Shown here piece after piece: positions 1 through 21,162 of a stretch of 64,000 nucleotides of DNA (position 1 is its first letter; each line of letters starts with the position of its first letter). Position numbers and translations under genes: made by a program. The notes under the pieces were generated by a model that saw only the letters and a program-made list of their open reading frames with translations, did no database searches and had not been told where the DNA came from. The DNA comes from Escherichia phage ECML-183-2, in the sequence record OL631481.1, one strand, 5' to 3'.

Positions 1-422
1 AGGATCTCGTCCGTGTCGTAAGTATAACCTGGAACACCAAGTTCACATTTCTTAAGATAGCTTTCTAACCAGCGGTGATAATTCTTAACCCATTCATACT
101 GTGCTACCTTTTCTTTTACCCAATCTACACGATCTTTATCATAATGTTGAGTGCCAAGGAAAAAACCATTGTGGAAACTTTCCTCACCGAAAGGATAAAT
201 TGGATCTAAACCATCTTCTTCAAATAACATTTTTAATCTGTTTGATGTAGATTTCTTAGTTTCTGAATTGTAGTTTGTGGTTATAAGCCAATCTTCCAAA
301 CAACGACACAAACCTTGACGAGAATCCCAAGGAAAAACACAATCTCCGACAGGAGCTTGTTTCGCCCATTTCAACCAGCCTTTAAAAAAGTTATACAGTA
401 TGTAGTCTTCAGTGTAATACAT
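1..422 (-). CDS. paralog family A protein, partial (continues beyond window start)
   Basis: ATG at 422 preceded by AAAGGAGGAG; frame checked open down to position 3; N-terminus shares W/Y-L-W..AP and GLC..L motifs with five other copies in window. Confidence 0.5.
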   Translation of the reverse strand, partial: MYYTEDYILYNFFKGWLKWAKQAPVGDCVFPWDSRQGLCRCLEDWLITTNYNSETKKSTSNRLKMLFEEDGLDPIYPFGEESFHNGFFLGTQHYDKDRVDWVKEKVAQYEWVKNYHRWLESYLKKCELGVPGYTYDTDEI

Positions 423-473
423 TATCTCCTCCTTTACGTATACAATAACACCCCGAAGAACGGGGTGCAACTG

Positions 474-1085
474 TTATTTAATCTGTTTGAAAATTTCGTT
501 TGGAACGGTACCGTTTAAAATACCTTCTACGATCTCTTGTGCAGATGTGTAAGAGAGTCCAAAAGAAGCTACGCCTAAAATTGCCTCCTTCAAAGGATCT
601 GGCAGGGGTTCAAAATTACCTGCAACAAAGCCACCTGCACAAGCAGCGCCTTCATCATCCCAGAAAACAACTGCTACATCGTTACCATGCGAAGTTGTGC
701 GATGTGCAATAACTTCAACTTCGGTGCCTTCTTTAGGAACAGAATAAGAACTGTCCCAAGAATATCTTTCCAAGTCAGGAACAAAGATAACCTTTTCACC
801 TACTGGCGGCAGTTCACAACGATAATACCAAGAATTTTTTTCGTTCATTGCTTTATTTTCCTCCACGTCTTCAAAAGTAACGATCCAATCGTAGCCGTAA
901 GAAAACGGATATTTTAGATCTAAAGAATAAGTTTGACCTAGATCGTCCTCAACAAGAACCATCCTGTCAAAGTTTGCGATGTTAGGATTATGTTTAATGA
1001 CAGGGTATGTTTCCCCTACAGTAAATTGTCCTAAATGGTAAAGTTCATCTCTCCAAGTAATTTGGACATAAGTGCATTGAATCAT
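474..1085 (-). CDS. hypothetical protein (203 aa)
   Basis: long ORF in minus-strand block; GGGGGTG upstream of ATG. Confidence 0.5.
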   Translation of the reverse strand: MIQCTYVQITWRDELYHLGQFTVGETYPVIKHNPNIANFDRMVLVEDDLGQTYSLDLKYPFSYGYDWIVTFEDVEENKAMNEKNSWYYRCELPPVGEKVIFVPDLERYSWDSSYSVPKEGTEVEVIAHRTTSHGNDVAVVFWDDEGAACAGGFVAGNFEPLPDPLKEAILGVASFGLSYTSAQEIVEGILNGTVPNEIFKQIK

Positions 1086-1089
1086 AAAA

Positions 1090-1362
1090 TCACCCCCAAG
1101 AAATATTTATATATCTTACAATGTTTGCACTGTCTAAAGCCATGTTTGCACCACACCCACGCTCGCGCCAGTAACTAACAATACCTTCACAGATACTCTC
1201 TTGTATCTTCTTATCACTTGGCATTTCTAGTATAAGACTTGGGTTGTGGATGTTTATGTTATAATATCCTTCCTCTGCGGCTTGAGCTACCAATTTACTT
1301 ACTTTTTCAAAGTACGGGGAATTAGTGGCATCTGCTATTGTTTTTAAGGTTTGTCTATCCAT
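1090..1362 (-). CDS. hypothetical protein (90 aa)
   Basis: ORF tightly packed in minus-strand block. Confidence 0.45.
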   Translation of the reverse strand: MDRQTLKTIADATNSPYFEKVSKLVAQAAEEGYYNINIHNPSLILEMPSDKKIQESICEGIVSYWRERGCGANMALDSANIVRYINISWG

Positions 1363-1727
1363 TATTCTGCCTCATCATAGAAGAAATCCAACTCTTGTTC
1401 CAGTTGTTTAACTTGATCCTTAACCCACTGTACACGTTTTTCATTAAACATGCAACGTTTTTCCTTACACTCTTGCTCAAAAGATTTTGCTGTGTTAAAC
1501 GGGAAAGTTGTATCTAAACCAGCATTTTCAAAACTGGCTAATTGCATACCATAAACAGAATATGCTAAAGAATGATCGGCTCGAAATTCATCACTTATAT
1601 ACATACGTAGACCTCGGCATAAGCCAACATCAGCGTAACCACTTTCTCTTGGAAAGAGACGGAGGTGTTCTAACCAATTATTATAGAAATCTAAAAGAAT
1701 CCTCTTACACTTCAAATCGATTGTCAT
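1362..1727 (-). CDS. paralog family A protein
   Basis: start moved to internal ATG (MTIDL) with GAAGGAGA RBS; motifs DFY..WL, GLC..L, FPFN, WVKDQ. Confidence 0.5.
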   Translation of the reverse strand: MTIDLKCKRILLDFYNNWLEHLRLFPRESGYADVGLCRGLRMYISDEFRADHSLAYSVYGMQLASFENAGLDTTFPFNTAKSFEQECKEKRCMFNEKRVQWVKDQVKQLEQELDFFYDEAE

Positions 1728-2127
1728 AAAAAGTTTCTCCTTCATCGAACAAGTTGGCAAGATTGTTCACGGCAATCTGGGTGGAAAGAAGACAACTGTT
1801 TGCAGACACATAAGCACGAGCTATTTTGTAAACATAGGCTTTCGTATTACAATTGTCTAGGATCGGAAGACTTTCGTCGATAGCATCTATAACACTAAAC
1901 ATCACATCTAAAACTTTAATTGTAAGTATTGTATCTATATCTTCGTAACCTTTTTCAATCCGACCTGAATAGAAAGCATAGTCCTCAACAGTTCGTCGTT
2001 TAAACTGGCGCATAAAATCGGAACCATCTGTAGTAGAATTGAACAAATTTTCAAAAAATACCTCCCATCCGGCAAAAAGGGCTGACAGCATGATTAAGTG
2101 ATCTACAGATTCATTTTCTTGTTTCAT
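1705..2127 (-). CDS. hypothetical protein (140 aa)
   Basis: ORF with AGGAGAGG RBS. Confidence 0.5.
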   Translation of the reverse strand: MKQENESVDHLIMLSALFAGWEVFFENLFNSTTDGSDFMRQFKRRTVEDYAFYSGRIEKGYEDIDTILTIKVLDVMFSVIDAIDESLPILDNCNTKAYVYKIARAYVSANSCLLSTQIAVNNLANLFDEGETFYDNRFEV

Positions 2128-2135
2128 ATCCTCTC

Positions 2136-2807
2136 CTATTTAATGTTCAATCTAGCACACAAGCGAGAAACAGTTTTAGCATCCCACTTACCACCACGTG
2201 CTGTTGCGATTTTCTTACTATTGAATTTTTCAGCAATAGTTTTGTAAGGTGTATTTAAATCTCTAAGGATCTCCAAGCGTTCACGAAATGTCTCTGCAAA
2301 AGCGTCTGCTTTAACAGAATTGTATTCCATTTTTCCTTTTCTACGTGCAGCGGCAGTTTTAGGATTAGCACTGCCTAACAAAACACCTTTGCTTTTTGCT
2401 ACAGCAAGACCCTTTTTAATACGATCAGCAATACCTCTAACTTCTTGTTCAGCCAGAACAGACAGAAGCTGTATAACCATTTTATCTGCGTCTGGCATGA
2501 TGGCTATCTTAACATCGATCATTTCTAGAAGAGTTGCTACGGAGGCGTTGTTACGACCCAAGCGGTCAACTTTAGCTACCAATAAAGTTGCTCCGGTAGC
2601 TTTACACATTTCAACCGCTTTAACCAGTTCCTTACGTTGCTTCCAATCGCCCTTACCAGAATAGTATTCAGAAAATTGACCAATAACTTCAGCATCAGGC
2701 ACAGAGTCTAAGAAGTAACGGATATCGTTCTCTTGGCTCTCCATACCATATTGTGCCTCACCTTTTTTCTGTTTAGAAAGACGACTGTAAACAACAAACT
2801 TTTTCAT
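2136..2807 (-). CDS. serine recombinase (resolvase/invertase family)
   Basis: N-terminal YSRLSKQ serine-nucleophile motif, DRLGRN motif, C-terminal HTH-like region; AGGAG RBS before ATG 2807. Confidence 0.7.
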   Translation of the reverse strand: MKKFVVYSRLSKQKKGEAQYGMESQENDIRYFLDSVPDAEVIGQFSEYYSGKGDWKQRKELVKAVEMCKATGATLLVAKVDRLGRNNASVATLLEMIDVKIAIMPDADKMVIQLLSVLAEQEVRGIADRIKKGLAVAKSKGVLLGSANPKTAAARRKGKMEYNSVKADAFAETFRERLEILRDLNTPYKTIAEKFNSKKIATARGGKWDAKTVSRLCARLNIK

Positions 2808-2836
2808 AACCACTCCTAAACCATTGCTGTATTCTC

Positions 2837-2865
2837 ACTTTACAAAACGAATAAACACTTGTCAA
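2837..2865 (-). promoter_or_regulatory. sigma70-like promoter for recombinase gene
   Basis: minus strand TTGACA-N17-TAAAGT. Confidence 0.5.
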
Positions 2866-2877
2866 GGTATTTATTAT

Positions 2878-3090
2878 TTACAGCCATTCTACTTTTAAGC
2901 AGTATTCTTCGACATGTTGTTTACGCTTGTTTTTGTCTATGTAAGTGTATTCAACAAATGTCCCAAGATAATCCTTGTCCACATTGTGTTGGCTATTAAT
3001 TGGACATTTAGTACGACAAACCCGTTGCCACTGACGAAGAATTACGGCTTTGTTTTTAGGATCAAAGGGATGAGGGTAATGTGCCTTCAT
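2878..3090 (-). CDS. hypothetical protein (70 aa)
   Basis: ORF with GGAGG RBS. Confidence 0.4.
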   Translation of the reverse strand: MKAHYPHPFDPKNKAVILRQWQRVCRTKCPINSQHNVDKDYLGTFVEYTYIDKNKRKQHVEEYCLKVEWL

Positions 3091-3414
3091 TCACGCCTCC
3101 TGTTTTAGTCGAAAAATATTTTGAATAACGAGAGATGTATAGTTATCACTTAGTCCCATAAGTTCTACTTCCAAGTTTCGAATATCTTCCACCGTAGGAG
3201 GATATGTTGGTAAAAATGCTTGAGCATTGCCAGATCCAACCTCATTGCTGTAAGCAGTTGTAAAATTGTAAGATACAAAACATGAAACACCTTTTTGTCG
3301 GTACCCGATTAATCGACGAATACACCAGATAAGAGCCAAACCTATGAGAACACCTCCTAAACCAGCTAACAAGAAGGATAAGTTCATAATAGCTTCGTTA
3401 ACAACTGCTTGCAT
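3091..3414 (-). CDS. hypothetical membrane protein (107 aa)
   Basis: hydrophobic N-terminal helix; AAGGAGA RBS. Confidence 0.5.
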   Translation of the reverse strand: MQAVVNEAIMNLSFLLAGLGGVLIGLALIWCIRRLIGYRQKGVSCFVSYNFTTAYSNEVGSGNAQAFLPTYPPTVEDIRNLEVELMGLSDNYTSLVIQNIFRLKQEA

Positions 3415-3424
3415 TCTTTTCTCC

Positions 3425-3724
3425 TTAGTTATGTAAACCCAAATGTGCTACAACTTCTCTACGATAAGATAACTGCATAGCGATTTTATAGCCAGGATGA
3501 AAACCATTTACATCAATGTCATCAAACCAAACCTCAAACGAACCGTGCTTAAGAGTCATTAAGTTGATATACCATTCGATAATATAATGATCGTCAGCAA
3601 TACCTTCGATGTAAAATTCTCGGCAACAGTGAGATAGGTCTTCACTTGTTTCACGTTTCCAGTCTTTGATAGCACCCTTCTCTTTGGCTTTATTCAGAAT
3701 CTTGATCAGGTCTTCAACTTGCAT
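3425..3724 (-). CDS. hypothetical protein (99 aa)
   Basis: ORF with GGAGAGA RBS. Confidence 0.5.
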   Translation of the reverse strand: MQVEDLIKILNKAKEKGAIKDWKRETSEDLSHCCREFYIEGIADDHYIIEWYINLMTLKHGSFEVWFDDIDVNGFHPGYKIAMQLSYRREVVAHLGLHN

Positions 3725-3753
3725 GTTTCTCTCCTTTTGTGGTTAATCTTTAT

Positions 3754-3782
3754 ATTTTAAATATTGTACCGTCTTCTGTCAA
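3754..3782 (-). promoter_or_regulatory. sigma70-like promoter
   Basis: minus strand TTGACA-N17-TAAAAT upstream of 3425-3724. Confidence 0.45.
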
Positions 3783-4192
3783 ATAGCCTCTTTCTCTAAA
3801 ACAACTCTTTGGATCACAACATCTTCAATGTTTGCCAAACAATGACCCAAAGTCAATCCTGCCTTGAAAGGTGCTTGTAGTTTGGATTCGGCTTCTACGC
3901 GAACAGAATGTTCCGCTCCGCACATGGTGTAATCTACACGGTAAACATTTAAACCTAAGAACATAGATTCTTCTTCTTCACAACAAGGATTGAGTTCAGC
4001 CCATTCCCAAGCATCTCCTTCTAAAGCAAATGGAGTGTTGTAATTGAAGAAAGTGCAGCGCGGATATTCCCCGTTGAAAGAATCTTTCAACAGGATATAT
4101 TTCTTACCATTTGCATGGAAGAGTTCTCCTTTGATAACCTTACCTACAAGGATATCACTGTTAGTGGAACGGGTGCAAATAAATTTTTTCAT
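3779..4192 (-). CDS. hypothetical protein (137 aa)
   Basis: ORF with GAGGAGA RBS. Confidence 0.5.
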   Translation of the reverse strand: MKKFICTRSTNSDILVGKVIKGELFHANGKKYILLKDSFNGEYPRCTFFNYNTPFALEGDAWEWAELNPCCEEEESMFLGLNVYRVDYTMCGAEHSVRVEAESKLQAPFKAGLTLGHCLANIEDVVIQRVVLEKEAI

Positions 4193-4221
4193 GATTTTCT
4201 CCTCTCTGTTTCGATGAGATG

Positions 4222-4250
4222 ATTATGACAAAGACAGATCCTTCTGTCAA
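4222..4250 (-). promoter_or_regulatory. sigma70-like promoter
   Basis: minus strand TTGACA-N17-CATAAT upstream of 3779-4192. Confidence 0.4.
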
Positions 4251-4567
4251 CCAATTATTTCTTCTGCTACACGTTCTTTTACCCAGTTCACACGATCCAC
4301 ATTCAAATGACAACGGCTTTTTTCCGCTTCTAAGGTGTACTTTCCAAAATTACTGTTGAAAGGCAACACCATAACCAAACCTTTGAGGTAGAACTGCTCA
4401 TGCATTTCATCCAGTACAGGTTCGTATCGTTCGCTTTCTCCTATGTCGTAAAAATCATAGAGGTTCGTGCACAAACCTGTGCAACGGGTGAACGGTTCAC
4501 CTTCAGGAGCACCAGCTTCCAACCATGCCAAATACGTGCGGTAAAATGTTAATAGTTCTTCGCTCAT
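4247..4567 (-). CDS. paralog family A protein
   Basis: AAGGAGA RBS before ATG 4567; motifs FY..YL.WL..GAP, GLC.NL, PFN, R.NWVK.R. Confidence 0.5.
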   Translation of the reverse strand: MSEELLTFYRTYLAWLEAGAPEGEPFTRCTGLCTNLYDFYDIGESERYEPVLDEMHEQFYLKGLVMVLPFNSNFGKYTLEAEKSRCHLNVDRVNWVKERVAEEIIG

Positions 4568-4776
4568 TTCCACTCTCCTTCGTGATAGTAAACCTCAAAA
4601 GAATAGTAAGTGAACATGCTCATTGTAACACCTGCCATTTCTGGATCAAAGGGGGTGTTGTTATACATGTCAACTACTGCCTGACCCGCTGCTTTGGCAT
4701 GTGCTGCTGAATCACAGGCACAAACATCTTTCTCCCACGGAAACTTGCCATCATACTTAAGACGGACAATCCACAT
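4564..4776 (-). CDS. hypothetical protein (70 aa)
   Basis: ORF with GGAGG RBS. Confidence 0.45.
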   Translation of the reverse strand: MWIVRLKYDGKFPWEKDVCACDSAAHAKAAGQAVVDMYNNTPFDPEMAGVTMSMFTYYSFEVYYHEGEWK

Positions 4777-4778
4777 GC

Positions 4779-5006
4779 TTATTCCTCCATCTCAAACCAT
4801 TCAGGGAACACTTTATGGAAGACACGGGTTGTTTCCAAAAGGAATTCCAATTCTTTTTCCAGATCTGCGTTCCAATCGTGCACTTTAACATTGATTGCCA
4901 ATGCACTTGCACGGCGACTTAATTCTTGACAGATTGGATCACGCAGAACTATTGAGTCGTAAAACTGACAAACAGCTTCAAGTTCATACCAGTTATAATC
5001 CGACAT
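4779..5006 (-). CDS. hypothetical protein (75 aa)
   Basis: ORF with GAGGAGG RBS. Confidence 0.45.
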   Translation of the reverse strand: MSDYNWYELEAVCQFYDSIVLRDPICQELSRRASALAINVKVHDWNADLEKELEFLLETTRVFHKVFPEWFEMEE

Positions 5007-5332
5007 TATTCATCCTCCTCTGCAATACGATCTCTTACCCAATTAATTCTGTCCACGTTCAGGTGACAGGCATCTGCATCTGACTCTAAGACATATGCAT
5101 CGTAGTTCTCATTGAAAGGGAGTTCTTGATTCAACACTTTATGGTAAAACTGTGCGTGCATTTCATCTGACAAGGTTGTTATAATGGGGTTGTAATTACC
5201 TCTGTGCACATAATCGAACAAGTTGGCACACAAACCACAATCCCGCCGAAAAGGTTTACCATCAGGAGCACCAACATCAATCCATGCTAGATAAATTTTA
5301 TAAAACTCCATCAACCTTGCGCTTGTTTTCAT
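5006..5332 (-). CDS. paralog family A protein
   Basis: GAGGTGG RBS; same motif set as other family A copies. Confidence 0.5.
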   Translation of the reverse strand: MKTSARLMEFYKIYLAWIDVGAPDGKPFRRDCGLCANLFDYVHRGNYNPIITTLSDEMHAQFYHKVLNQELPFNENYDAYVLESDADACHLNVDRINWVRDRIAEEDE

Positions 5333-5570
5333 TTAGCCACCTCGTTAGTTTTTCTTGCTCTTTGTTTGCGCGTTCTAAGCTTCTGAACTTTAAACAGAGG
5401 GAACGAGAATCCCTACCCATGCACAAGCTTTCATCTAAGCTGTGCTCCCCAACCAACCAAAGAGAGTATGTTTGAACATCTAACCCATAGTTTCTGTCTT
5501 TCCATAATCTCACCCCAAGAACATCAAAAGGAGCTTCCGCGACTAAAGAAAGGAACCGATCTTTATTCAT
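5298..5570 (-). CDS. hypothetical protein (90 aa)
   Basis: ORF with AAGGTGG RBS. Confidence 0.45.
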   Translation of the reverse strand: MNKDRFLSLVAEAPFDVLGVRLWKDRNYGLDVQTYSLWLVGEHSLDESLCMGRDSRSLCLKFRSLERANKEQEKLTRWLNENKRKVDGVL

Positions 5571-5601
5571 ATTACACCACCTTACTCACGTTGATAATGT
5601 A

Positions 5602-5629
5602 TGTATACCATACATAAAATAAATGTCAA
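5602..5629 (-). promoter_or_regulatory. sigma70-like promoter
   Basis: minus strand TTGACA-N16-TATACA upstream of 5298-5570. Confidence 0.4.
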
Positions 5630-5632
5630 GGC

Positions 5633-5833
5633 TTATCGACACAGATAGTTGTAACGATCTGCTTTATCCTCTGCTTCAGCAAAGTCAGCAATCAAGGAAG
5701 TTTTAAGTTCTTCCAACTCTTTCACCCAAGAGTCGTAATCGTTCTGTGTTTCTCCAATAGTTTGGAGAAAACAATCGTCGTAGCCAATAGACATGGCTAA
5801 CTCGATAATACGTTCCAGTTTTTCTTCCATCAC
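5633..5833 (-). CDS. hypothetical protein (66 aa)
   Basis: ORF with AAGGAGAG RBS. Confidence 0.45.
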   Translation of the reverse strand: MMEEKLERIIELAMSIGYDDCFLQTIGETQNDYDSWVKELEELKTSLIADFAEAEDKADRYNYLCR

Positions 5834-6192
5834 TTCTCTCCTTCTACAGACTTCTGTTTAACATAGAAGTAAGCACCACGAGCAAGATACAAATCATGTT
5901 CAATATCGCTCACAGGAAAACCATTTGGATTTTTAAAACCATCTTCTACAGCCAAAATGAGAGATCGTAAACTGATAGCTAACAACTCCATTTGATCTTG
6001 TAGTTTTCTATTTTCTGCGTAAAGGTTTTTGCATTTTTGTTCTGCATTTTTCCATTGTTCTAATGCATGATCATAGCGGTGCATAAGAATAGCTTTTTCT
6101 TGTTCACGCTTAAAAGTTTCTTCACAAATGAAACCTGTGCCTAAACCAGTTTCTTCGTCTTTGACAAACACTTCAACAAAATCTTTAGACAT
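5830..6192 (-). CDS. hypothetical protein (120 aa)
   Basis: start moved to internal ATG (MSKDF) with AGGAGA RBS, removing overlap with upstream ORF. Confidence 0.45.
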   Translation of the reverse strand: MSKDFVEVFVKDEETGLGTGFICEETFKREQEKAILMHRYDHALEQWKNAEQKCKNLYAENRKLQDQMELLAISLRSLILAVEDGFKNPNGFPVSDIEHDLYLARGAYFYVKQKSVEGEK

Positions 6193-6193
6193 A

Positions 6194-6484
6194 TTATCTC
6201 CTATTTGCTTTCGGATACTCCCAACCCTCTGGGAGATCTTCTTTACACATCCACTCAAAAGGCCAGCGACAATAACTGTGCCACTTTCCATCGAGATACA
6301 AACAATCTTCATCTACTGGTCCACAAGGGTTGATAACTACAACACACCCTTTCGCTCGCCAATATTGAACTATTTCAGGGTAAAAACAAGAAACGTCGGT
6401 CCACTCCCAAATACGTTCATCATTCAGACGGTAGGCTGCTGGTAATGTTTCTTTCATAGTATTAAACCTGAGCCAAGGAGTCAC
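6194..6484 (-). CDS. hypothetical Cys/Trp-rich protein
   Basis: ORF; start codon uncertain (GTG at 6484 or ATG at 6457). Confidence 0.4.
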   Translation of the reverse strand: MTPWLRFNTMKETLPAAYRLNDERIWEWTDVSCFYPEIVQYWRAKGCVVVINPCGPVDEDCLYLDGKWHSYCRWPFEWMCKEDLPEGWEYPKANRR

Positions 6485-6698
6485 GCCAATTACGGCTATC
6501 TCCTTCTCCTAAATACCAGTAATCCGCAGCATTAAAAACTTGATAAGGAATACGCCACGCATAAGCGAAATCTGGAATCTCCGGTTTATGACTGTAACCA
6601 TAACGCTCGCCACTCGAATCTGTTGCAATATAATTAACAAATTCAGGAACCTCTAAAATTTCACCTTGATACTCTACACGCTTGAAGCCATCTTCCAC
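6462..6698 (-). CDS. hypothetical protein (78 aa)
   Basis: GTG start with GGGGGAGG RBS. Confidence 0.45.
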   Translation of the reverse strand: MEDGFKRVEYQGEILEVPEFVNYIATDSSGERYGYSHKPEIPDFAYAWRIPYQVFNAADYWYLGEGDSRNWRDSLAQV

Positions 6699-6918
6699 TT
6701 GTTCCTCCCCCTTCTACCAGAAGGGCAAGAAGTTTGATGTGAGGGCAAGTGAAATCTTGTCCTGGATAACGTGAACGGATATCAGTTAACAATGCGATCA
6801 CAGCATCCGATAACTCTTTATAATCCTCATATCTTACAAATGTGCCTTCTGTCGGATCATCAGGACACAAACGCCAAACATCGTTGCAGTTTACAGCATA
6901 ATGTCGCACTTTAGTCAT
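6661..6918 (-). CDS. hypothetical protein (85 aa)
   Basis: ORF with AAGGGG RBS. Confidence 0.45.
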   Translation of the reverse strand: MTKVRHYAVNCNDVWRLCPDDPTEGTFVRYEDYKELSDAVIALLTDIRSRYPGQDFTCPHIKLLALLVEGGGTSGRWLQACRVSR

Positions 6919-6927
6919 AAATACCCC

Positions 6928-7326
6928 TTATCGTTGCGTACAATCAGCTTCTAGAGTAAGAACATTCGTTATTGTTTTATCATTTTTTAGAAATGCAAAC
7001 CAAGCCAAAGTGTCTCGATACTCTGTGCGCATCATTACTACTTCAGTAGTGCCAATAAATTGTTGTGAACCGTACATAGCACTACCATCTTTACTTTTTT
7101 CTCCTGTGTATTGCAGAATGCCACTCATCAAAGCACCGCCTGAATTTTTAAGGATAAAGGAGTTATCTTTATTAATGACAACAGAAGCCATTTTCTTAGG
7201 ACCAGAAATCACTTCACCTTTCAGATTTTTAACAACCACATCTGACACACACTCATAAACTTGAGACGCACTTGCTGTTCCAAGTGATGCAATGAGTAAC
7301 AACAAACCTACGATGATCTTTTTCAT
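6928..7326 (-). CDS. secreted protein with N-terminal signal peptide (132 aa)
   Basis: MKKIIVGLLLLIASLGTASA signal-like N-terminus; AGAGGAGAG RBS. Confidence 0.5.
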   Translation of the reverse strand: MKKIIVGLLLLIASLGTASASQVYECVSDVVVKNLKGEVISGPKKMASVVINKDNSFILKNSGGALMSGILQYTGEKSKDGSAMYGSQQFIGTTEVVMMRTEYRDTLAWFAFLKNDKTITNVLTLEADCTQR

Positions 7327-7422
7327 ATAAACTCTCCTCTTTGTTTACCCGATGCGCCCCCTGTTGGGCGGAAAGGGTTGTACGCAAAATTTTTAGCTCC
7401 AATCGTCGGGTGTCCCGACTCC

Positions 7423-7629
7423 TTACGCTTTTAATGTTTTAACAGAATGACAAGCTTTGCAAACAATAACCGGAACAAGTTCATCTCCATTATCCGCATA
7501 AATCACTGTTTTCTTCATTCTGCCACCACATGAACAATACTCTGTATGATCCGCTGGAATATTAAATATTCCGTAATCACTTTCATACTGTTTCTTACAT
7601 ATGGACACTGCTTTCGTAAAACAAGACAT
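7423..7629 (-). CDS. small zinc-ribbon-like protein (68 aa)
   Basis: two Cys pairs (C..C.....C..C); GGAGTAGG RBS. Confidence 0.45.
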   Translation of the reverse strand: MSCFTKAVSICKKQYESDYGIFNIPADHTEYCSCGGRMKKTVIYADNGDELVPVIVCKACHSVKTLKA

Positions 7630-7631
7630 GC

Positions 7632-7853
7632 CTACTCCGCAAGAACCTTCACTTCGTCAGAGAAGAATACGTAATCACAACCTTCCCAAACATCTTCTTC
7701 AAACCACTCCCATCCCTCGACTTTGGACATTTCTTCTATCGTAACAAAGAATGTTGTCATATCCTCACTAACAAGATGTGCTTCAACAACAAAAGGAATC
7801 TGAACATTCTCAAAACCAACATAACCCAATACATCACAAACTCTAATTTTCAT
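7632..7853 (-). CDS. paralog family C protein (73 aa)
   Basis: shares W.WFEEDV.EG.DYVFF motif with 11967-12188. Confidence 0.45.
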   Translation of the reverse strand: MKIRVCDVLGYVGFENVQIPFVVEAHLVSEDMTTFFVTIEEMSKVEGWEWFEEDVWEGCDYVFFSDEVKVLAE

Positions 7854-7854
7854 A

Positions 7855-8043
7855 TTATGCTCCTCTGTAGATTATGTTGGTGCGTTCACACTCTGCTACC
7901 AGCAAGCGATTAGCAATGTTATCCATAGGAACATCAATCTCTACACTCCAGGCATTGATACACACTTCTTCAATCTTTGCTCCCAACGTTTGTGCGATCA
8001 GAGCAACAGCCCCAGCATATTCAAGTTTAATCTCAATTACCAT
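7855..8043 (-). CDS. hypothetical protein (62 aa)
   Basis: start moved to ATG with GAGGTG RBS. Confidence 0.4.
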   Translation of the reverse strand: MVIEIKLEYAGAVALIAQTLGAKIEEVCINAWSVEIDVPMDNIANRLLVAECERTNIIYRGA

Positions 8044-8057
8044 TTTGCACCTCAAGG

Positions 8058-8288
8058 TTATTTGTCTTGCTTGTATCTTACAAGGCGATCACACTCCAGG
8101 TCAAGAAATTTCTCCGCATTTCGTTCATGTTTGAGCACAATACATTGTTCTTTCCAGTCTGTAGCTCTTTGCTGCGCTGCTCCTGGGTCAAAATCCCAAA
8201 GCCATGCCGCGAAAAGAACAACTACCCAAAGCCATACCGCGAAAAGAACAACTATAACAATTACTAAGAAACTAAACACTATTGGCAT
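8058..8288 (-). CDS. small membrane protein with internal tandem repeat
   Basis: hydrophobic; AGGAGG RBS before ATG 8288; contains about 30-bp tandem duplication. Confidence 0.4.
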   Translation of the reverse strand: MPIVFSFLVIVIVVLFAVWLWVVVLFAAWLWDFDPGAAQQRATDWKEQCIVLKHERNAEKFLDLECDRLVRYKQDK

Positions 8289-8593
8289 TGCACATCCTCC
8301 TGTGTAGCATGATCTTTTACCCATTTTATACGGGCAGCATTCAAATGCAATAGCCCGTTTCTTTGTGCAAAATCATATTTAAACCAGTCTCCGTCATCAA
8401 ACGGGTATTCTTCAGACAACCCTGCTTCTCGAAATTGCATTTGCATTTCATAATTTAGATCATCGTAACCACCAGTCCAAAGGTAGAGGCAACTGCACAA
8501 ACCTTTATCGTGCCAGAAAGGATTATTATCTGGAGCACCAGCTAACAGCCAATTATGATAGGCTTGATAAAATTCTTTAAGTTCTTCTGACAT
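8279..8593 (-). CDS. paralog family A protein
   Basis: AGGGGGT RBS; motifs FY..Y..WL.AGAP, GLC, PFD, WVKD. Confidence 0.5.
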   Translation of the reverse strand: MSEELKEFYQAYHNWLLAGAPDNNPFWHDKGLCSCLYLWTGGYDDLNYEMQMQFREAGLSEEYPFDDGDWFKYDFAQRNGLLHLNAARIKWVKDHATQEDVQCQ

Positions 8594-8770
8594 TTAACCC
8601 CCTGTGTACAGTGTTGAAAGATACACAGCAAAAGCATTCTCGGCTGTTTTAACCTCCTCTTCAAGATCTTCACGCTCTGTTGGCGTTAGCGCATTTCGCA
8701 CAGCAGCGTCTGCTTCTCGGATTTTTCTTACTAAACGTGAAACATCTTTCAGTTGTTGAAAAGTAGCCAT
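8594..8770 (-). CDS. hypothetical protein (58 aa)
   Basis: start moved to ATG after AAAGGAGG RBS. Confidence 0.4.
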   Translation of the reverse strand: MATFQQLKDVSRLVRKIREADAAVRNALTPTEREDLEEEVKTAENAFAVYLSTLYTGG

Positions 8771-8783
8771 AATCTTCCTCCTT

Positions 8784-9017
8784 TTAGTCAAACCAGTTGT
8801 ATTCGGAAGGGTAACGAGCGTAGTTTGGCTTGTACCCCAGTCTTTTCATCTTAACAGACATACGAGTGAAGCCAAAGGTTGTTTTGCCCTTAGACATAAA
8901 CTTCTTCCCACTCTTCATTGGCTTCTTAGGGTTTTTGATCGTCTGGTGTAACGCTCGCGCAAGCCACAGAGTGTATGCGCTCGGCACTTGATTAACTTTC
9001 ATCTTGTTACCTTTCAT
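8784..9017 (-). CDS. small basic protein (77 aa)
   Basis: start moved to ATG after AAGGAGG RBS; K/R-rich. Confidence 0.4.
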   Translation of the reverse strand: MKGNKMKVNQVPSAYTLWLARALHQTIKNPKKPMKSGKKFMSKGKTTFGFTRMSVKMKRLGYKPNYARYPSEYNWFD

Positions 9018-9027
9018 CGAAACCTCC

Positions 9028-9237
9028 TTAGTGAACTTCGTGCCAAGTGCCAAACTCTTCTGCTGATACTTTAGGAACGGCATGAGTTTCTCGATATTTG
9101 TTTAAAGCTTTCTCAATGGCTGTAGCAAAAACATCTTGTGATTTATAAGGCATATAATAAGAGCGTCCCATGTATGCCACTGCATCACGTAATTCTTCTG
9201 CTTGCTCTTGTGTAACTGTCAATGTGATAGTAACCAT
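9028..9237 (-). CDS. hypothetical protein (69 aa)
   Basis: start moved to ATG after GGAGGTG RBS. Confidence 0.4.
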   Translation of the reverse strand: MVTITLTVTQEQAEELRDAVAYMGRSYYMPYKSQDVFATAIEKALNKYRETHAVPKVSAEEFGTWHEVH

Positions 9238-9536
9238 TATTTCACCTCCGACCAATCAATAGTGATCCACTCGTATGCCCCGTTCAGATCCATTTCTTTA
9301 TAAACAATAAGCCCACGCTCACGAAGAATTGCTACTGCTTCATCCATCCACTTCACCTGATTGTAGATCGCCCCTGGGTGGGTAGGGGAATTATCTAGAC
9401 CAAAATCAGATGGCGTGAAATTTCTTGAAGAGTTTCCCGCTCGTGCTTCAGCAAAACATGTCTCGATCACTTCTTCAACAGGGAAGTTGAAGGAAGCTTC
9501 TTTTGCAATACGGCGTAACTGTTCAGTCAGATTCAT
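9237..9536 (-). CDS. hypothetical protein (99 aa)
   Basis: ORF with AAAGGAGA RBS. Confidence 0.45.
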   Translation of the reverse strand: MNLTEQLRRIAKEASFNFPVEEVIETCFAEARAGNSSRNFTPSDFGLDNSPTHPGAIYNQVKWMDEAVAILRERGLIVYKEMDLNGAYEWITIDWSEVK

Positions 9537-9563
9537 CTTATTCTCCTTTCGTTGTGTGAAACA

Positions 9564-10001
9564 TTACAGCAGATCTAATGCTTTCAACTCTTCTTTCAAT
9601 GATTCAGGCAGGTCACATTCAATGTCAATCAGAGATAACAAGTGACCAACAATGCCTTCCAGATGTTGATACTCACTATAACTTATAAATTCAGAATTGT
9701 AAACAGAAACATCCTTAGTTTCTTTCACAACTTCCCCCGCAGACACACACATAAAAAAGTTACGCTCTCCGCGAGCTAACAATATCTCCCAACTCCTGAA
9801 CGGATACTGTCCAGCTTCAATAATATCTCCGCTGTCCAATAAAGTCAATGAGCAAACAGACCCTGATTCACTAACATCTTCGACGCGGAAACAAGACCCT
9901 TCAATCAAAGCTGCCATTTTGAAATTTTCATCAGAAATCATAGAGAAAGCTTCACATGCAGCTTTGCTTTTGAAACAGTAAACAGCATTAACTTTGAACA
10001 T
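9564..10001 (-). CDS. paralog family B protein (145 aa)
   Basis: N-terminus MFKV..Y.FKS shared with 10011-10796 and 10809-11264; AAGGAG RBS. Confidence 0.5.
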   Translation of the reverse strand: MFKVNAVYCFKSKAACEAFSMISDENFKMAALIEGSCFRVEDVSESGSVCSLTLLDSGDIIEAGQYPFRSWEILLARGERNFFMCVSAGEVVKETKDVSVYNSEFISYSEYQHLEGIVGHLLSLIDIECDLPESLKEELKALDLL

Positions 10002-10010
10002 AATAGCTCC

Positions 10011-10796
10011 TTATTTTATTACCGCAGTAGGCTCAATACTAACAACACCAATACGCTCATAGATCTCAACAGTAGAAATTGGATATTCTTCCTTCATCTT
10101 TTTTGCTTCCGTGGCGATCTCTTCATAAGAATGTGACACCAATTGGACATTCATGCCTTTAACAATAGCATAGTGTTTAAAATTCGCTGCGGATTCCTCT
10201 TGTTTAGGCTCAACAACATCTTTAATATTTTTAAAATAAGGGTTATCGCTTTTGATTAGCAGTGCACAAGCTTCCTTGAACCAGCCTTCACCTGCTACAT
10301 GATTTGTATTACATACAAGCCTACGGATTGCTGTTACATCTTGTCCAACCATCTTTGTGATCACGAAAGGATCATCGCCAATAAGATCGGAAATTTTTCG
10401 GTTTACATTGTTTGTCGTTTGTCCTCCGTCAATATAATTGGCGAAAAGCTTACGATCTTGTTCACTTGCAAACTTATAGACACCACCTTCTACAAAGACA
10501 CAGCCTCCTGTAGGAGAATCTTCATAATCTTCAGGAGTATGTTCTTCAAAACGAGCATAATCCATACAACTTACAAGCTTATAACCTTCAGGGAAAAGCC
10601 CAGAACCAGCTTCGATGATTTTATTTGTGTCTAATACCTTCACCTTAGATACAGAACCAAGAAAATCAACATCCAAAACTTTAAACTTGCTATCTTGAAT
10701 GCAACCTACAAAGAAAGCGTTACCAATACTAGCTTTACCAAAATTCTTTTTGGTATCTTCCGATTTGAAATTATAAATAAAACCTACTTTAAACAT
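10011..10796 (-). CDS. paralog family B protein (261 aa)
   Basis: MFKVGFIYNFKSED N-terminus and IIEAG motif shared with family members; AAGGGG RBS. Confidence 0.5.
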   Translation of the reverse strand: MFKVGFIYNFKSEDTKKNFGKASIGNAFFVGCIQDSKFKVLDVDFLGSVSKVKVLDTNKIIEAGSGLFPEGYKLVSCMDYARFEEHTPEDYEDSPTGGCVFVEGGVYKFASEQDRKLFANYIDGGQTTNNVNRKISDLIGDDPFVITKMVGQDVTAIRRLVCNTNHVAGEGWFKEACALLIKSDNPYFKNIKDVVEPKQEESAANFKHYAIVKGMNVQLVSHSYEEIATEAKKMKEEYPISTVEIYERIGVVSIEPTAVIK

Positions 10797-10808
10797 AACA
10801 TTCCCCTT

Positions 10809-11264
10809 TTAAACAAAAGATACGCCGATGGTAGCAACAACCATACGTTTATAAACTTCAACCTCTTCTGTAGGATTAGCCATTTTATGCTCTGCTGCTT
10901 CTTTCAAAGCTTCTTCATAACTTTCAAATCCAGAAATACAGGTGTCATCAGTCATTACAACATACCACTCTTCTTTTGTTGTATCAACAGGTTCTTCTTG
11001 GGGTTTTCCACGACCACCACGAACACCACCGTCAACAAAATAATCTATATGAGCAGAATTGATTATGTAACGATCCCCATCACTAGCAGTGATAATACCG
11101 TCTCTCCCTATCACAACAATTGACAAGATATTACCATTTGCATCAGTGCTCAACACCTCGAAAAAATTCTCTCCAATGATAGCAGCAATACTGTTATCAA
11201 AGGTAGAATATAATCGCATATAGTCTTCATCCTGGAAACGGTAGACATGACCTTCTTTAAACAT
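10809..11264 (-). CDS. paralog family B protein (151 aa)
   Basis: MFKEGHVYRFQDED N-terminus; AGGAGGAGAG RBS. Confidence 0.5.
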   Translation of the reverse strand: MFKEGHVYRFQDEDYMRLYSTFDNSIAAIIGENFFEVLSTDANGNILSIVVIGRDGIITASDGDRYIINSAHIDYFVDGGVRGGRGKPQEEPVDTTKEEWYVVMTDDTCISGFESYEEALKEAAEHKMANPTEEVEVYKRMVVATIGVSFV

Positions 11265-11718
11265 TGCTCTCTCCTCCTAGTTCATCATACCATTTCAAAG
11301 CGTCTTTTGGAAGCATACCAAAATCTTCTTTTAGTTCTTTTTCAATCTCTTCTTGCATTTCCATCAGCATTTTCAATTGACGAACTTTTTTGTGCATAGC
11401 CACATTTCTTTCATTAAGATTTGTCACTACATTATTTGCACGACTTGGTGGAAATGACAAAGGTTTCACGGGAAGATAATCTTCAATATTATCTAGTGCG
11501 TTACGAAAATTATGATCCAAGAAACGCACATCTACACGATTGTAATCGGCAGCTACAACAGTGAACACTTTAAACGGCACATTGGATAAAGTATGTTGCA
11601 CACAGACAGTACCCATATTACCTTCAATTTTACTGGTAACTTCCAGCAAACCTGTATGAGCACTAACATAATCGTGAACACATTGCACATAAGCTGCCAG
11701 TATAGTGAATTGTCTCAT
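11257..11718 (-). CDS. hypothetical protein (153 aa)
   Basis: ORF with GGGGAGG RBS. Confidence 0.5.
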   Translation of the reverse strand: MRQFTILAAYVQCVHDYVSAHTGLLEVTSKIEGNMGTVCVQHTLSNVPFKVFTVVAADYNRVDVRFLDHNFRNALDNIEDYLPVKPLSFPPSRANNVVTNLNERNVAMHKKVRQLKMLMEMQEEIEKELKEDFGMLPKDALKWYDELGGESNV

Positions 11719-11963
11719 TTTCTACCTCCCCATAATGCTAACATTTTATTGAAAATGGAAACGCGTCGTGCGCGAGATGCCATATCATAATTCATTCTTT
11801 CCGTCTCTGCAAGAAATTGATCTACGGTAATCAACGCTTCTGTCTTCTCTTTCAGAGTTTGCATATTCATCCATTCACATTCAGAGTACCAATTATCGAA
11901 ATACAAACTATCAAGAAGATCCATTGCTGCTTCATTCTGTTGTGGTGTGATCATTGCACACAA
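11715..11963 (-). CDS. hypothetical protein (82 aa)
   Basis: ORF overlapping neighbours by 4 nt. Confidence 0.45.
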   Translation of the reverse strand: MCAMITPQQNEAAMDLLDSLYFDNWYSECEWMNMQTLKEKTEALITVDQFLAETERMNYDMASRARRVSIFNKMLALWGGRK

Positions 11964-11966
11964 CCC

Positions 11967-12188
11967 TTAATAGACAATTTCATATTCGTGAGGAAAGAAA
12001 ACATAATCTTCCCCTTCTCGTGCATCTATCTCGTCCCAAAACCATTCCTGCACTTCCATCATCTTCGAGAATCGCACATGAGCAAGCCCACTGTATTCCA
12101 CAGTAGCTTCCAACACAAGTGGAAATTTTGCATGGACAAGTCCTTTATAACCACCATCATTCTCAATACGAATTTTCATGCGTTTCAT
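11967..12188 (-). CDS. paralog family C protein
   Basis: W.WF..E.D..EGEDYVFF motif shared with 7632-7853; start position approximate. Confidence 0.4.
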   Translation of the reverse strand: MKRMKIRIENDGGYKGLVHAKFPLVLEATVEYSGLAHVRFSKMMEVQEWFWDEIDAREGEDYVFFPHEYEIVY

Positions 12189-12189
12189 G

Positions 12190-12399
12190 TTATGCATCCT
12201 TCAGACCCTTAATAAAGTAACGACCAACCGGATTCCCTCGGAAGTATTCGTTAATGAAATCGATAACACACGTTTCACTGCCTGTCACAACGGACGGCTT
12301 AAAGTTTTGGAATTCTACAGCTACACGGCTGGCTTTAGCCAGTGCTTGCACACGTGTAGGATCAGTCAAGAACATTGTGACAGTTTTCAAATTCTTCAT
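12190..12399 (-). CDS. hypothetical protein (69 aa)
   Basis: ORF with GAGGAGA RBS. Confidence 0.45.
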   Translation of the reverse strand: MKNLKTVTMFLTDPTRVQALAKASRVAVEFQNFKPSVVTGSETCVIDFINEYFRGNPVGRYFIKGLKDA

Positions 12400-12448
12400 T
12401 TCATCTCCTCATTGGCTATCTGTTATGTCGTCCATTATACAAACATCT

Positions 12449-12787
12449 TTATTCAATGCAAGCATTATTTGCATCTTCAATGCGATCTTTCACCCACTGA
12501 AGACGTAACTCGTTGGTATGACACGCTAAACCTATGCACTCTGAAAGGTAATCCATGCAATCTGCATTAAACGGGAAATTGTAATCTAGTCCTGCACCAA
12601 TAAACTGGGATTTCATCTCTTGTTGTAGACGAGGTAACAGTTCATCAGGGTATGTTCCCTCTACATACTTAATCAAACATATGCACAAACCACTCGTTGT
12701 GTGACCTTCTACCTCACCAGCAAGCCAAGCTTTGTAAAACTTCATTAGACGTAAACTACTTAACGGAACATTTTTACTCTCTTGCAT
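12449..12787 (-). CDS. paralog family A protein
   Basis: GAGGAG RBS; motifs FYKAWL, GLC.CL, FPFN, WVKDR. Confidence 0.5.
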   Translation of the reverse strand: MQESKNVPLSSLRLMKFYKAWLAGEVEGHTTSGLCICLIKYVEGTYPDELLPRLQQEMKSQFIGAGLDYNFPFNADCMDYLSECIGLACHTNELRLQWVKDRIEDANNACIE

Positions 12788-13130
12788 GACAATCTCCTCT
12801 CATCGTTAGCCATCTTTCATGGCAATCATCAATCACCAACATCATACGATCAATCTTAAGGAATTACAATCGAATTATCATAGGGGATTCCTATCAATTA
12901 TCCCATATATACCGATTATTTTTGACACCCCATTCTTGTATAAAAAGTAACCCAAAATATCCACGGGGAGAGATTATTTCGACACACCCTGTTTCATGGC
13001 AATCATGGCAAGAATATCTAATAGAATCAATATCATATGGCAAAAATCATGGCGCATACGTAAGAAGTGCTTAACGCGAATTTTCGGGCCGTCAGGTCCA
13101 CGCAGCGACAATTCCCAAATATCATGCGAA

Positions 13131-16173: not shown

Positions 16174-16365
16174 TTATTTTGTAAAGATTACAGCTTCATC
16201 AAAATTTTCAACATAGTAAGCAAGCTCTTCATTTGCTGCAACCATTCCTAAAAGTTGGCTATAAGATAAACCTTTGATCCCTTCCTCGTTGTTTAATGCT
16301 TCGATGATTTCATCAACGGGCGCAAAAAACATGTTATTCGATTCCAGGTAGGAGATGGTTTTCAT
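16174..16365 (-). CDS. hypothetical protein (63 aa)
   Basis: downstream of cassette 16387-16442. Confidence 0.5.
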   Translation of the reverse strand: MKTISYLESNNMFFAPVDEIIEALNNEEGIKGLSYSQLLGMVAANEELAYYVENFDEAVIFTK

Positions 16366-16386
16366 AATGTTTACCTTTTTCGGGGA

Positions 16387-16442
16387 GCGGCACCATTGCC
16401 GCCCTACGTGGTAAATATTAGCACACTGGCGATCTGTGTCAA
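16387..16442 (-). promoter_or_regulatory. promoter plus leader-hairpin cassette
   Basis: TTGACA-N16-TAATAT, ttaccACGTAGGG, hairpin GCGGCAATGGTGCCGC. Confidence 0.6.
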
Positions 16443-16448
16443 TACTTT

Positions 16449-21152: not shown

Positions 21153-21162
21153 CTGTTTTTTA

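What the first reader, a model, noticed from the sequence alone, without database searches (positions are those of the whole stretch)
1..12787. Six-member paralog family of about 105-aa proteins scattered through the left gene block
Seen in sequence: ORFs at 1-422 (partial, longer), 1362-1727, 4247-4567, 5006-5332, 8279-8593 and 12449-12787 share an ordered motif set (FY..YL.WL..GAP.G.PF, GLC..L, PFN, and C-terminal H.N..R..WVK.R) while the intervening residues diverge strongly. I do not recognise the domain. Inference: repeated duplication and divergence of a small early gene is the pattern expected for host-interaction or counter-defence proteins under diversifying selection.
Basis: seen in the sequence. 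Interest (0 to 1): 0.5.

Follow-up and report, generated by a model that had tools for sequence, protein, structure and literature searches.

The report
Six-copy uncharacterised phage early-protein family
A 150-kb E. coli phage (phAPEC8-like) carries six diverged copies of a small helical protein that is widespread in phages, includes the untested phage N4 early protein gp3, and has no known function or solved structural relative.

Summary
Six minus-strand ORFs (1-422, 1362-1727, 4247-4567, 5006-5332, 8279-8593, 12449-12787) are homologous, with collinear motifs. An HMM finds exactly these six in the window (E 1e-29 to 1e-44; next best 0.69).

The window is a Phapecoctavirus (phAPEC8-like E. 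coli myovirus). The family is PHROG phrog_2510, function unknown. It has no Pfam, NCBIfam, PADLOC or PDB match. It is large (1,951 clusters at 50% identity), essentially phage-restricted, and includes phage N4 gp3. AlphaFold2 gives a confident five-helix domain with no solved structural relative.

- Only copies c and d are each other's closest relatives. Every other copy has many foreign homologs closer than its co-resident paralogs.
- Ortholog dN/dS is 0.21-0.41, against 0.14-0.27 for neighbours. This is purifying selection, not gene-wide positive selection.
- Diversification comes from gene gain and loss (5 to at least 9 copies among relatives) and recombination. Copy f is a hybrid of two tandem paralogs joined at the PFN motif.
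- The "longer" copy a is a 1-nt homopolymer deletion that fuses two genes.

Function is untested. My best guess is early host-takeover or counter-defence effectors built around an invariant Cys/Arg polar site.

The parts
1..422 (-). Copy a. The family domain is encoded by about 93-422. The ORF runs off the left end of the window because it is fused in frame to the next small ORF (phrog_19887).
   Evidence: Translation. phrog_2510 E 1.3e-27, with residues 111-140 hitting phrog_19887. HMM E 8e-29.
89..91 (-). G3 run where three relatives have G4. This 1-nt deletion removes the TAA stop of copy a and fuses it to the downstream gene. It could be a real mutation or a homopolymer sequencing error.
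   Evidence: DNA alignment with phAPEC8_ev052, vB_Ec-G1 and ECO340P1.
1362..1727 (-). Copy b (121 aa from the ATG). It scores lowest of the complete copies against the broad family HMM. The usually conserved His is Met here (CMFN).
   Evidence: AF2 model pLDDT 92.8 with the same five-helix order. Ortholog dN/dS 0.04-0.12.
4247..4567 (-). Copy c (106 aa). It is the closest paralog of d (50-52% identity). It is absent from phAPEC8_ev052 and vB_Ec-G1.
5006..5332 (-). Copy d (108 aa). This is the reference copy for residue numbering and for the first AF2 model.
   Evidence: AF2 pLDDT 93.4, pTM 0.86, five helices.
8279..8593 (-). Copy e (104 aa). Its orthologs are 99-100% identical in close relatives. 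Its nearest relatives outside the genus include a protein of an N4-like phage (P0069).
12449..12787 (-). Copy f (112 aa). It is a hybrid gene. The 5' two-thirds match the upstream tandem paralog of relatives and the 3' third matches the downstream one.
   Evidence: Protein alignment. DNA alignment to ECO340P1 shows 98.2% then 92.0% identity with 364 bp missing between the two blocks. Most of the relatives listed carry the 885-bp two-gene form.
12568..12569 (-). Recombination junction inside copy f, directly after the codons for the conserved D-Y-N-F-P-F-N motif.
12973..13002 (-). Sigma-70-like promoter match (10 of 12) upstream of copy f. This is a consensus match only.
448..468 (-). Terminator-like hairpin plus T-run between gene 474-1085 and copy a. 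This is a consensus match only.

Best explanation
Shown: the six genes encode members of a large, phage-restricted, uncharacterised protein family (PHROG phrog_2510, whose named member is phage N4 gp3). Each is one compact, acidic, five-helix domain of about 100 aa with no signal peptide or other domain. The Phapecoctavirus lineage keeps 5 to at least 9 diverged copies, mostly under purifying selection. It reshuffles them by gene gain and loss and by recombination at conserved motifs.

Inferred: they are made early in infection and act in the host cytoplasm as host-takeover or counter-defence effectors. A shared functional site is formed by the conserved loops and polar residues (numbering of copy d): G21-A-P, P27-F-x-R30, G33-L-C35, E57, Q61, P72-F-N74, E83, H90-x-N92, R95 and W98. 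The hypervariable helix 2-helix 3 loop and helix 4 give each copy a different partner specificity. Several copies would therefore cover several variants of a polymorphic host target.
For: Family membership and size:
- 1,951 clusters at E<=1e-3 and 1,057 at E<=1e-10.
- N4 gp3 is a member, with hhalign probability 99.3% and E 2.7e-20.

Early genome position:
- N4 gp3 is the third gene, between the early genes gp2 and gp15 (PMC4496689).
- An N4-like metagenomic contig has a member just downstream of Gp1 and Gp2.
- Homologs sit within the first few kb of N4-like phages and of Ralstonia, Burkholderia and Klebsiella podovirus genomes of about 41-45 kb.
- The window block carries near-consensus sigma-70-like promoters at 14864, 4250 and 3782.

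Phage restriction: 253 phage records hold a match. Only 1 of 72,556 plasmid records does, and that one carries phd/doc and other phage-type genes, which I read as a P1-like phage-plasmid.

Fold: pLDDT 93.4 and 92.8 for copies d and b, with the same five helices.

Conserved site:
- C35 is present in 197 of 199 domains, R95 in 199 of 200, P72-F73 in 200 of 201, and W17 in 197 of 197.
- About eight further polar positions are 70-95% conserved across 200 domains.
- Loops L1 and L3 are among the least variable segments, whereas L2 (3.75 bits, with indels) and helix 4 (3.22 bits) are the most variable.
- Every domain of the tandem 2x and 3x proteins keeps R95 and all but one keep C35; W98 is F or Y in a few.

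Other properties:
- The six copies are acidic, pI 4.5-5.1.
- Copy number varies and copy f is a hybrid.
- Purifying selection on each copy shows that each is functional.
- No conserved partner gene is shared between the N4-like loci examined and this phage, so the protein probably acts alone.
Against: - There is no experimental or homology-based link to any host target or defence system.
- PADLOC and all structure searches were empty.
- Early expression is inferred from gene position and consensus promoters, not measured.
- A single copy at a conserved position in N4-like phages of many hosts fits a general, possibly phage-internal role as well as it fits counter-defence.
- Many invariant polar residues could point to an enzyme or a small-ligand binder rather than a protein binder.
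- I could not inspect the model coordinates, so it is not shown that the conserved polar residues cluster in space.
- Gene-wide dN/dS is below 1.
Confidence: 0.4

Rival explanations
1. The domain is a small enzyme. Invariant Cys35, at the N-terminus of helix 2, would be the nucleophile. His90, Asn92, Arg95 and Glu57 would assist it in covalently modifying or cleaving a host protein, nucleic acid or metabolite early in infection.
For: Cys35 is conserved in 197 of 199 domains although overall identity is about 25-40%. Arg95 is in 199 of 200, Asn92 in 187 of 200, His90 in 160 of 198 and Glu57 in 181 of 198. Loops are more conserved than helices. Thirty domains have only this one Cys, so it is not there for an intramolecular disulfide or a Cys4 metal site.
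Confidence: 0.2
2. The proteins are sponges or sensors for small molecules, for example immune nucleotide signals. This would be analogous to Acb2, Tad1 or Tad2, with different paralogs binding different ligands.
For: The proteins are small, apparently early, phage-restricted, multi-copy and also occur as tandem-domain forms. They have a conserved Arg/aromatic/polar cluster with variable surroundings.
Against: No sequence or structural similarity to solved sponges was found. An invariant Cys is not a feature of the known sponges (from my own knowledge). Oligomeric state and any pocket were not examined.
Confidence: 0.1
3. The family serves the phage's own early programme, for example as a cofactor of transcription, replication or DNA protection, rather than host conflict. 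The extra copies would be partly redundant or stage- or host-specific isoforms.
Confidence: 0.15
4. The similarity arises by chance or the ORFs are not real genes.
For: None.
Against: HMM E-values are 1e-29 to 1e-44 against 0.69 for the next ORF. There are 1,951 homologous clusters. dN/dS is well below 1 for most copies. The AF2 models are confident.
Confidence: 0.01

Closest known systems
Phage N4 gp3 (YP_950481.1, NC_008720 positions 1214-1528) and PHROG families phrog_2510, phrog_6418 and phrog_27059
   Same: Same domain (hhalign probability 99.3%, E 2.7e-20), same length of about 104 aa, and the same motif order: FL..Y..WL..GA, GLC, PFN, CHLN..RI.WI. It is a small gene at the early end of the genome.
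   Different: N4 has one copy, whereas this phage has six and relatives have 5 to at least 9. No function is recorded for gp3, and the PHROGs are labelled 'unknown function'. The literature searches found nothing on its role.
Small phage counter-defence proteins: Ocr and ArdA DNA mimics; Acb2, Tad1 and Tad2 signal sponges
   Same: Small, apparently early, cytoplasmic, acidic phage proteins with patchy copy number. This is a functional analogy only.
   Different: No sequence or structural similarity was found. No defence-related activity was tested. Only 1 of 72,556 plasmid records holds a match, whereas ArdA-type anti-restriction genes are common on conjugative plasmids (from my own knowledge).
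T4 AsiA-type small all-helical early host-takeover proteins
   Same: About 90-110 aa, all-helical and early, acting by binding a host protein. This is an analogy.
   Different: No Pfam or PDB match to AsiA or any other takeover protein was found. The target of this family is unknown.
Atd1, the only anti-defence gene reported for Phapecoctavirus in PMC11724313
   Same: Same phage genus, and an accessory gene.
   Different: Atd1 is a MazG-like (p)ppGpp pyrophosphatase (bioRxiv 10.1101/2022.06.09.495361). The family studied here has no Pfam match of any kind, MazG-type families included.

Membership tests
PHROG phrog_2510 / N4 gp3-like uncharacterised phage protein family | Significant, near full-length profile match. 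| tested here: met
   All six copies hit at E 3e-31 to 3e-25 over about 100 residues. N4 gp3 matches the family profile with probability 99.3%.
PHROG phrog_2510 / N4 gp3-like uncharacterised phage protein family | Collinear signature W17, G33-L-C35, F62, P72-F73, N92, R95, W98 (numbering of copy d). | tested here: met
   The signature is invariant or nearly so in the six copies and in 200 domains from the wider family. Minor departures: copy a has PFG and HYD; copy b has CMFN.
PHROG phrog_2510 / N4 gp3-like uncharacterised phage protein family | Single five-helix domain. | tested here: met
   AF2 models of copies d and b have pLDDT 93.4 and 92.8 with the same helix order. BFVD matches to family members reach TM 0.8-0.87. 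These are predictions only.
Known anti-defence or defence-associated protein families | Sequence or fold similarity to a characterised member. | tested here: not met
Known anti-defence or defence-associated protein families | Demonstrated inhibition of a defence system. | not testable with these tools
   This needs phage knock-outs or co-expression assays.
Lambdoid Ead/Ea22-like proteins (considered because some longer homologs looked like such modular proteins) | Homology to lambda Ea22. | tested here: not met
   Lambda Ea22 has no match to the family HMM (E 0.11, score -0.9) and no BLASTP similarity to the fusion proteins P0148, P0170, P0177 and P0166. Two of those four (P0177, P0166) also hit phrog_60, an unknown-function family.
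T4 GoF-like 'mRNA metabolism modulator' (an annotation seen in relatives of this region) | The annotation applies to these genes. | tested here: not met
   In phAPEC8_ev052 and vB_Ec-G1 the goF label sits on the counterparts of window 9564-11264, a different paralog family. The six genes studied here are all 'hypothetical protein'.
Genes under diversifying (positive) selection | dN/dS above 1, or clearly above the neighbouring genes. | tested here: inconclusive
   Pooled ratios are 0.21-0.41 for the family and 0.14-0.27 for neighbours. One pair (copy d against phAPEC8_ev052) gave 1.65, but on only 9 substitutions. Segment ratios across f-type copies were 0.42-0.58. Site models on many orthologs were not run.

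The most novel reading that the evidence does not exclude
The N4 gp3-like domain is a new protein fold that carries a previously unknown activity centred on an invariant helix-capping Cys with Arg95, His90 and Glu57. The activity would be either catalytic or ligand-binding. Virulent Proteobacteria phages would use it in the first minutes of infection. Phapecoctaviruses would have expanded and recombined it into a 5-9-member arsenal in which each member neutralises a different host immunity or stress pathway.
Probability: 0.2. Interest if true: 0.7.

Novelty: new variant of a known kind. Interest (0 to 1): 0.4.

Why it matters
The family has nearly 2,000 sequence clusters, is absent from Pfam and has no solved structure. 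It sits in the early regions of several model and therapy-relevant phage groups: N4-like phages, small podoviruses of Ralstonia, Burkholderia and Klebsiella, rV5-, phi92- and phAPEC8-like phages, and 45-48-kb phages of Shigella, Salmonella and Klebsiella. If it proves to be a host-takeover or counter-defence module, one experiment on N4 gp3 or on these paralogs would annotate thousands of 'hypothetical' phage genes. It could also help explain host-range differences among phAPEC8-like phages. The hybrid copy f shows directly how such families diversify, by recombination at conserved motifs. If the family is only a dispensable accessory protein, the finding is an ordinary example of paralog families in large phage genomes.

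Tried and rejected
Searches that found nothing relevant:
- Pfam on the six copies, on 10 longer homologs and on 135 diverse members gave no real hits.
- NCBIfam and PADLOC gave none.
- PDB profile searches with 6- and 135-sequence profiles gave nothing significant.
- BFVD returned only 'uncharacterized protein' entries.

- The search for related loci with the broad alignment failed for lack of a conserved 7-10-column stretch.
- A second word-indexed protein search with the broad profile returned only 13 hits and no informative names.

Literature:
- Searches for phrog_2510, N4 gp3 and Phapecoctavirus early, paralog or anti-defence terms found no study of this family.
- 'gp3' in the polyvalent-protein paper refers to gp30 of phage Mu.
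- Atd1 is a MazG-like enzyme, unrelated to this family.

Ideas rejected:
- A Zn site formed by C35, C37, C89 and H90. 74 of 201 domains have neither C37 nor C89, and 30 have a single Cys.
- Ea22 membership.
- goF identity; that label belongs to neighbouring genes.
- A conserved partner gene shared with N4-like loci; none was found.
- A plasmid or leading-region distribution. Only one plasmid record matched, and it carries phd/doc and other phage-type genes.
- dN/dS between paralogs was not attempted, because synonymous sites are saturated at 25-50% amino-acid identity.
Full report
**1. The observation**

I call them a to f:
- a: 1-422, which runs off the window
- b: 1362-1727, 121 aa
- c: 4247-4567, 106 aa
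- d: 5006-5332, 108 aa
- e: 8279-8593, 104 aa
- f: 12449-12787, 112 aa

MAFFT aligns them collinearly with an invariant L, F, G-L-C..L, F, L, P-F and R..W-V. Pairwise BLASTP E-values run from 6e-5 to 2e-39. Copies c and d share 50-52% identity and the other pairs that BLASTP reports share 25-39%. A family HMM, run with filters off against all 666 six-frame ORFs of the 64-kb window, hits exactly these six (E 4e-44 to 8e-29). The next ORF scores E = 0.69.

**2. Where the window comes from**

The first 13 kb are about 96-97% identical to many Escherichia phages of the genus Phapecoctavirus. These are phAPEC8-like myoviruses of about 150 kb in the subfamily Stephanstirmvirinae. In the deposited genomes inspected, the counterparts of the six genes are all 'hypothetical protein'.

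The genes sit in a minus-strand block of small, almost entirely unannotated ORFs. In ECO340P1 this block starts only about 4 kb left of the window. The large plus-strand ORFs begin beyond about 37 kb. The block contains several near-consensus sigma-70-like promoters on the minus strand, at 14864-14836, 4250-4222, 3782-3754, 13002-12973 and 2865-2837. These are consensus matches only.

**3. What the family is**

All six copies match PHROG phrog_2510 (E 1e-25 to 1e-31), and more weakly phrog_6418 and phrog_27059. All three are labelled 'unknown function'. Nothing was found in any of these:
- Pfam: the six copies, 10 longer homologs and 135 diverse members
- NCBIfam
- PADLOC
- PDB sequences, with 6- and 135-sequence profiles

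An exhaustive HMMER search of 1.84 billion representative proteins found 1,951 clusters at E<=1e-3 and 1,057 at E<=1e-10. Most are single domains of 95-125 aa. Some carry two or three tandem domains, and a few are longer modular proteins.

tblastn against 50,697 phage genomes found the family in 253 records. The organism names include:
- N4 and other 70-77-kb phages of Escherichia, Achromobacter, Erwinia, Klebsiella, Delftia and Rhizobium, within the first few kb of the genome
- 41-45-kb phages of Ralstonia, Burkholderia and Klebsiella
- phages of about 45-48 kb infecting Shigella, Salmonella and Klebsiella
- rV5-like and phi92-like phages of about 137-150 kb
- Rhizobium phages of about 46 kb

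Among 72,556 plasmid records only one matched. It carries phd/doc, an S24 peptidase gene and dut, which I read as a P1-like phage-plasmid. The family is therefore essentially phage-restricted.

Phage N4 gp3 (1214-1528) is a clear member, with hhalign probability 99.3% and E 2.7e-20. It lies between gp2 and gp15, both of which are early gene products (PMC4496689). An N4-like metagenomic contig has a member just downstream of Gp1 and Gp2. I found no publication on the function of gp3 or of this family.

**4. Structure**

AlphaFold2 on copy d with a 34-sequence alignment gives pLDDT 93.4 and pTM 0.86. The helices span residues 5-19, 34-43, 50-64, 77-85 and 93-107. Copy b, one of the two most divergent copies, gives the same helix order at pLDDT 92.8.

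**5. Conservation pattern**

Across 200 domains (numbering of copy d):
- Effectively invariant: W17 (197/197), C35 (197/199), P72-F73 (200/201), R95 (199/200), W98 (194/198)
- 90% or more: L7, F10, Y11, G33, L34, E57, F62, N92
- 70-90%: Q61, N74, Y80, E83, H90, V99

The loops L1 (G-A-P...P-F-x-R..G) and L3 (A-G-L...P-F-N) are among the least variable segments. The helix 2-helix 3 loop (3.75 bits, with indels of up to about 20 aa) and helix 4 (3.22 bits) are the most variable.

A Cys/His metal site is unlikely. 74 of 201 domains lack both accessory cysteines and 30 have only Cys35. In the tandem-domain proteins every domain keeps R95 and all but one keep C35. The six window proteins are acidic, with pI 4.5-5.1.

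This many conserved polar residues in conserved loops suggests a shared functional site, and the variable segments are candidates for specificity.

**6. How the copies evolve**

(a) Copy number is polymorphic:
- this window: 6
- ECO340P1: 7
- phAPEC8_ev052: 6 (lacks c, has two f-type genes)
- vB_Ec-G1: 5
- phiWec186: at least 9 in 19 kb
- a related metagenomic contig: 8 genes with 9 domains in 13.6 kb

(b) Only c and d are each other's closest relatives. For a, b, e and f, between 14 and 55 family members from elsewhere score higher than the best co-resident paralog. The set is therefore not a recent burst of duplication. The copies are ancient or were separately acquired.

(c) I computed ortholog dN/dS (Nei-Gojobori) against four relatives. 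Pooled values are 0.21-0.41 for the family and 0.14-0.27 for the roughly 30 neighbouring genes. Copies b and e are at 0.00-0.12. Copies c and d are higher, but on few substitutions: the single value above 1, which is 1.65, rests on 9 changes. Copy f is at 0.19-0.35. Segment ratios across nine f-type genes are 0.42-0.58 everywhere. Selection is purifying, somewhat relaxed, with no gene-wide positive selection.

(d) Recombination between paralogs is directly visible. Copy f is a hybrid. Window 12897-12569 matches the upstream f-type gene of ECO340P1 at 98.2%. Window 12568-12432 matches the downstream f-type gene at 92.0%. 364 bp are missing between them, and the junction falls right after the conserved D-Y-N-F-P-F-N codons. 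phAPEC8 itself and most other relatives listed at full query coverage have the 885-bp two-gene arrangement. Among the listed rows, only BI-EHEC matched the whole query in a single piece.

(e) The 'longer' copy a results from a G4-to-G3 deletion at window 89-91. The deletion removes the TAA stop found in three relatives and fuses the gene to the next 67-aa ORF (residues 111-140 hit phrog_19887). It may be a real mutation or a homopolymer sequencing error.

**7. Mechanism (inference)**

The shown facts are as follows:
- The proteins are small, acidic, single-domain and free-standing.
- No partner gene is shared between the N4-like loci and this phage.
- The family is phage-restricted.
- The genes sit at the early end of several unrelated phage genome types.
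- Multiple retained but shuffled copies share a conserved polar site and have variable loops.

From these I infer early-expressed cytoplasmic effectors for host takeover or counter-defence. The copies would share one site chemistry and differ in partner specificity (confidence about 0.4).

The rivals are:
- a small Cys-dependent enzyme (0.2)
- a phage-internal early cofactor (0.15)
- a small-molecule sponge (0.1)

None can be separated with the present tools. Experiments that would separate them are listed under decisive next steps.

**8. Comparison with known families**

The only family in which membership is met is the uncharacterised phrog_2510 / N4 gp3 family. Membership was tested and not met for:
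- known defence-associated families and solved anti-defence folds
- lambda Ea22
- winged-helix DNA binders
- the goF annotation, which belongs to neighbouring genes

Atd1, the anti-defence gene reported for Phapecoctavirus, is a MazG-like pyrophosphatase and is unrelated.

**9. Verdict**

This is a real and well-defined paralog family. It is catalogued but functionally unknown, has an apparently novel fold, and shows a clear recombination-driven diversification signature. I score interest as moderate (0.4). Multi-copy unknown-function families are common in large phages. However, the size of this family, its absence from Pfam and PDB, the link to N4 gp3 and the invariant Cys/Arg site make it a reasonable target for experiments.

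Noticed in passing
window 9564-10001, 10011-10796, 10809-11264 (minus strand): A second paralog group. The three proteins all start MFK(V/E)...Y.F. 9564-10001 and 10011-10796 share 42% identity over 67 aa. Relatives annotate these genes as 'goF mRNA metabolism modulator' or 'RNA metabolism moderator'. No Pfam match.
   Followed up: partly
window 2136-2813 (minus strand): A 225-aa serine recombinase (Pfam Resolvase, E 5e-18) lies inside the small-gene block. Several GenBank relatives label its counterpart 'methionine ABC transporter ATP-binding protein', which looks like a mis-annotation. Others label it DNA invertase or resolvase.
   Followed up: partly
window 7632-7853 and 11967-12197 (minus strand): These two small ORFs are paralogs (36% identity, E 6e-10). 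Each lies a few hundred bp downstream of a family copy (e and f respectively). This hints at an old segmental duplication of a multi-gene block.
   Followed up: no
window 34370-34720 / 34711-35025; 51603-51944 / 52960-53235; 56421-57368 / 57376-58320 (plus strand): Three further paralog pairs lie on the plus-strand side of the window, at 44%, 34% and 41% identity. The last pair aligns over 303 aa.
   Followed up: no
window about 16177-16452, 17566-17907, 24110-24382, and short ORFs at 20916-24492: Short ORF translations on both strands match each other (55-93% identity over 15-50 aa). This suggests repeated DNA segments between about 16 and 24.5 kb. ARAGORN finds no tRNA genes anywhere in the window.
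   Followed up: no
window 8058-8324 (minus strand): An 88-aa ORF with a long hydrophobic stretch (IVFSFLVIVIVVLFAVWLWVVVLFAAWLW) overlaps the 3' end of family copy e by 46 nt. It is probably a small membrane protein.
   Followed up: no
GenBank relatives: Records named Campylobacter phage B15, Acinetobacter phage vB_AbaM_ABPW7 and Pseudomonas phage PsgM04F are about 150 kb and carry copies of these genes closely resembling those of the E. coli phages (B15: 96% amino-acid identity for copy d; ABPW7: 96% DNA identity over 13 kb). Their host labels look doubtful.
   Followed up: no
f-type genes in relatives and metagenomes (alignment A2): Many f-type variants share near-identical ends (MQESKNVPLSS... 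and ...QWVKDRIEDANNACIE). Their middles are very different and carry insertions of up to about 20 aa. This cassette-like pattern fits repeated recombination at conserved flanks.
   Followed up: partly
window 6462-6698, 11257-11718, 12190-12399 (minus strand): Some non-family genes in the block are also mosaic between genomes that are otherwise about 96-97% identical. Amino-acid identity drops to 56-83% in individual relatives. Module replacement is therefore a property of the whole block, not only of this family.
   Followed up: partly
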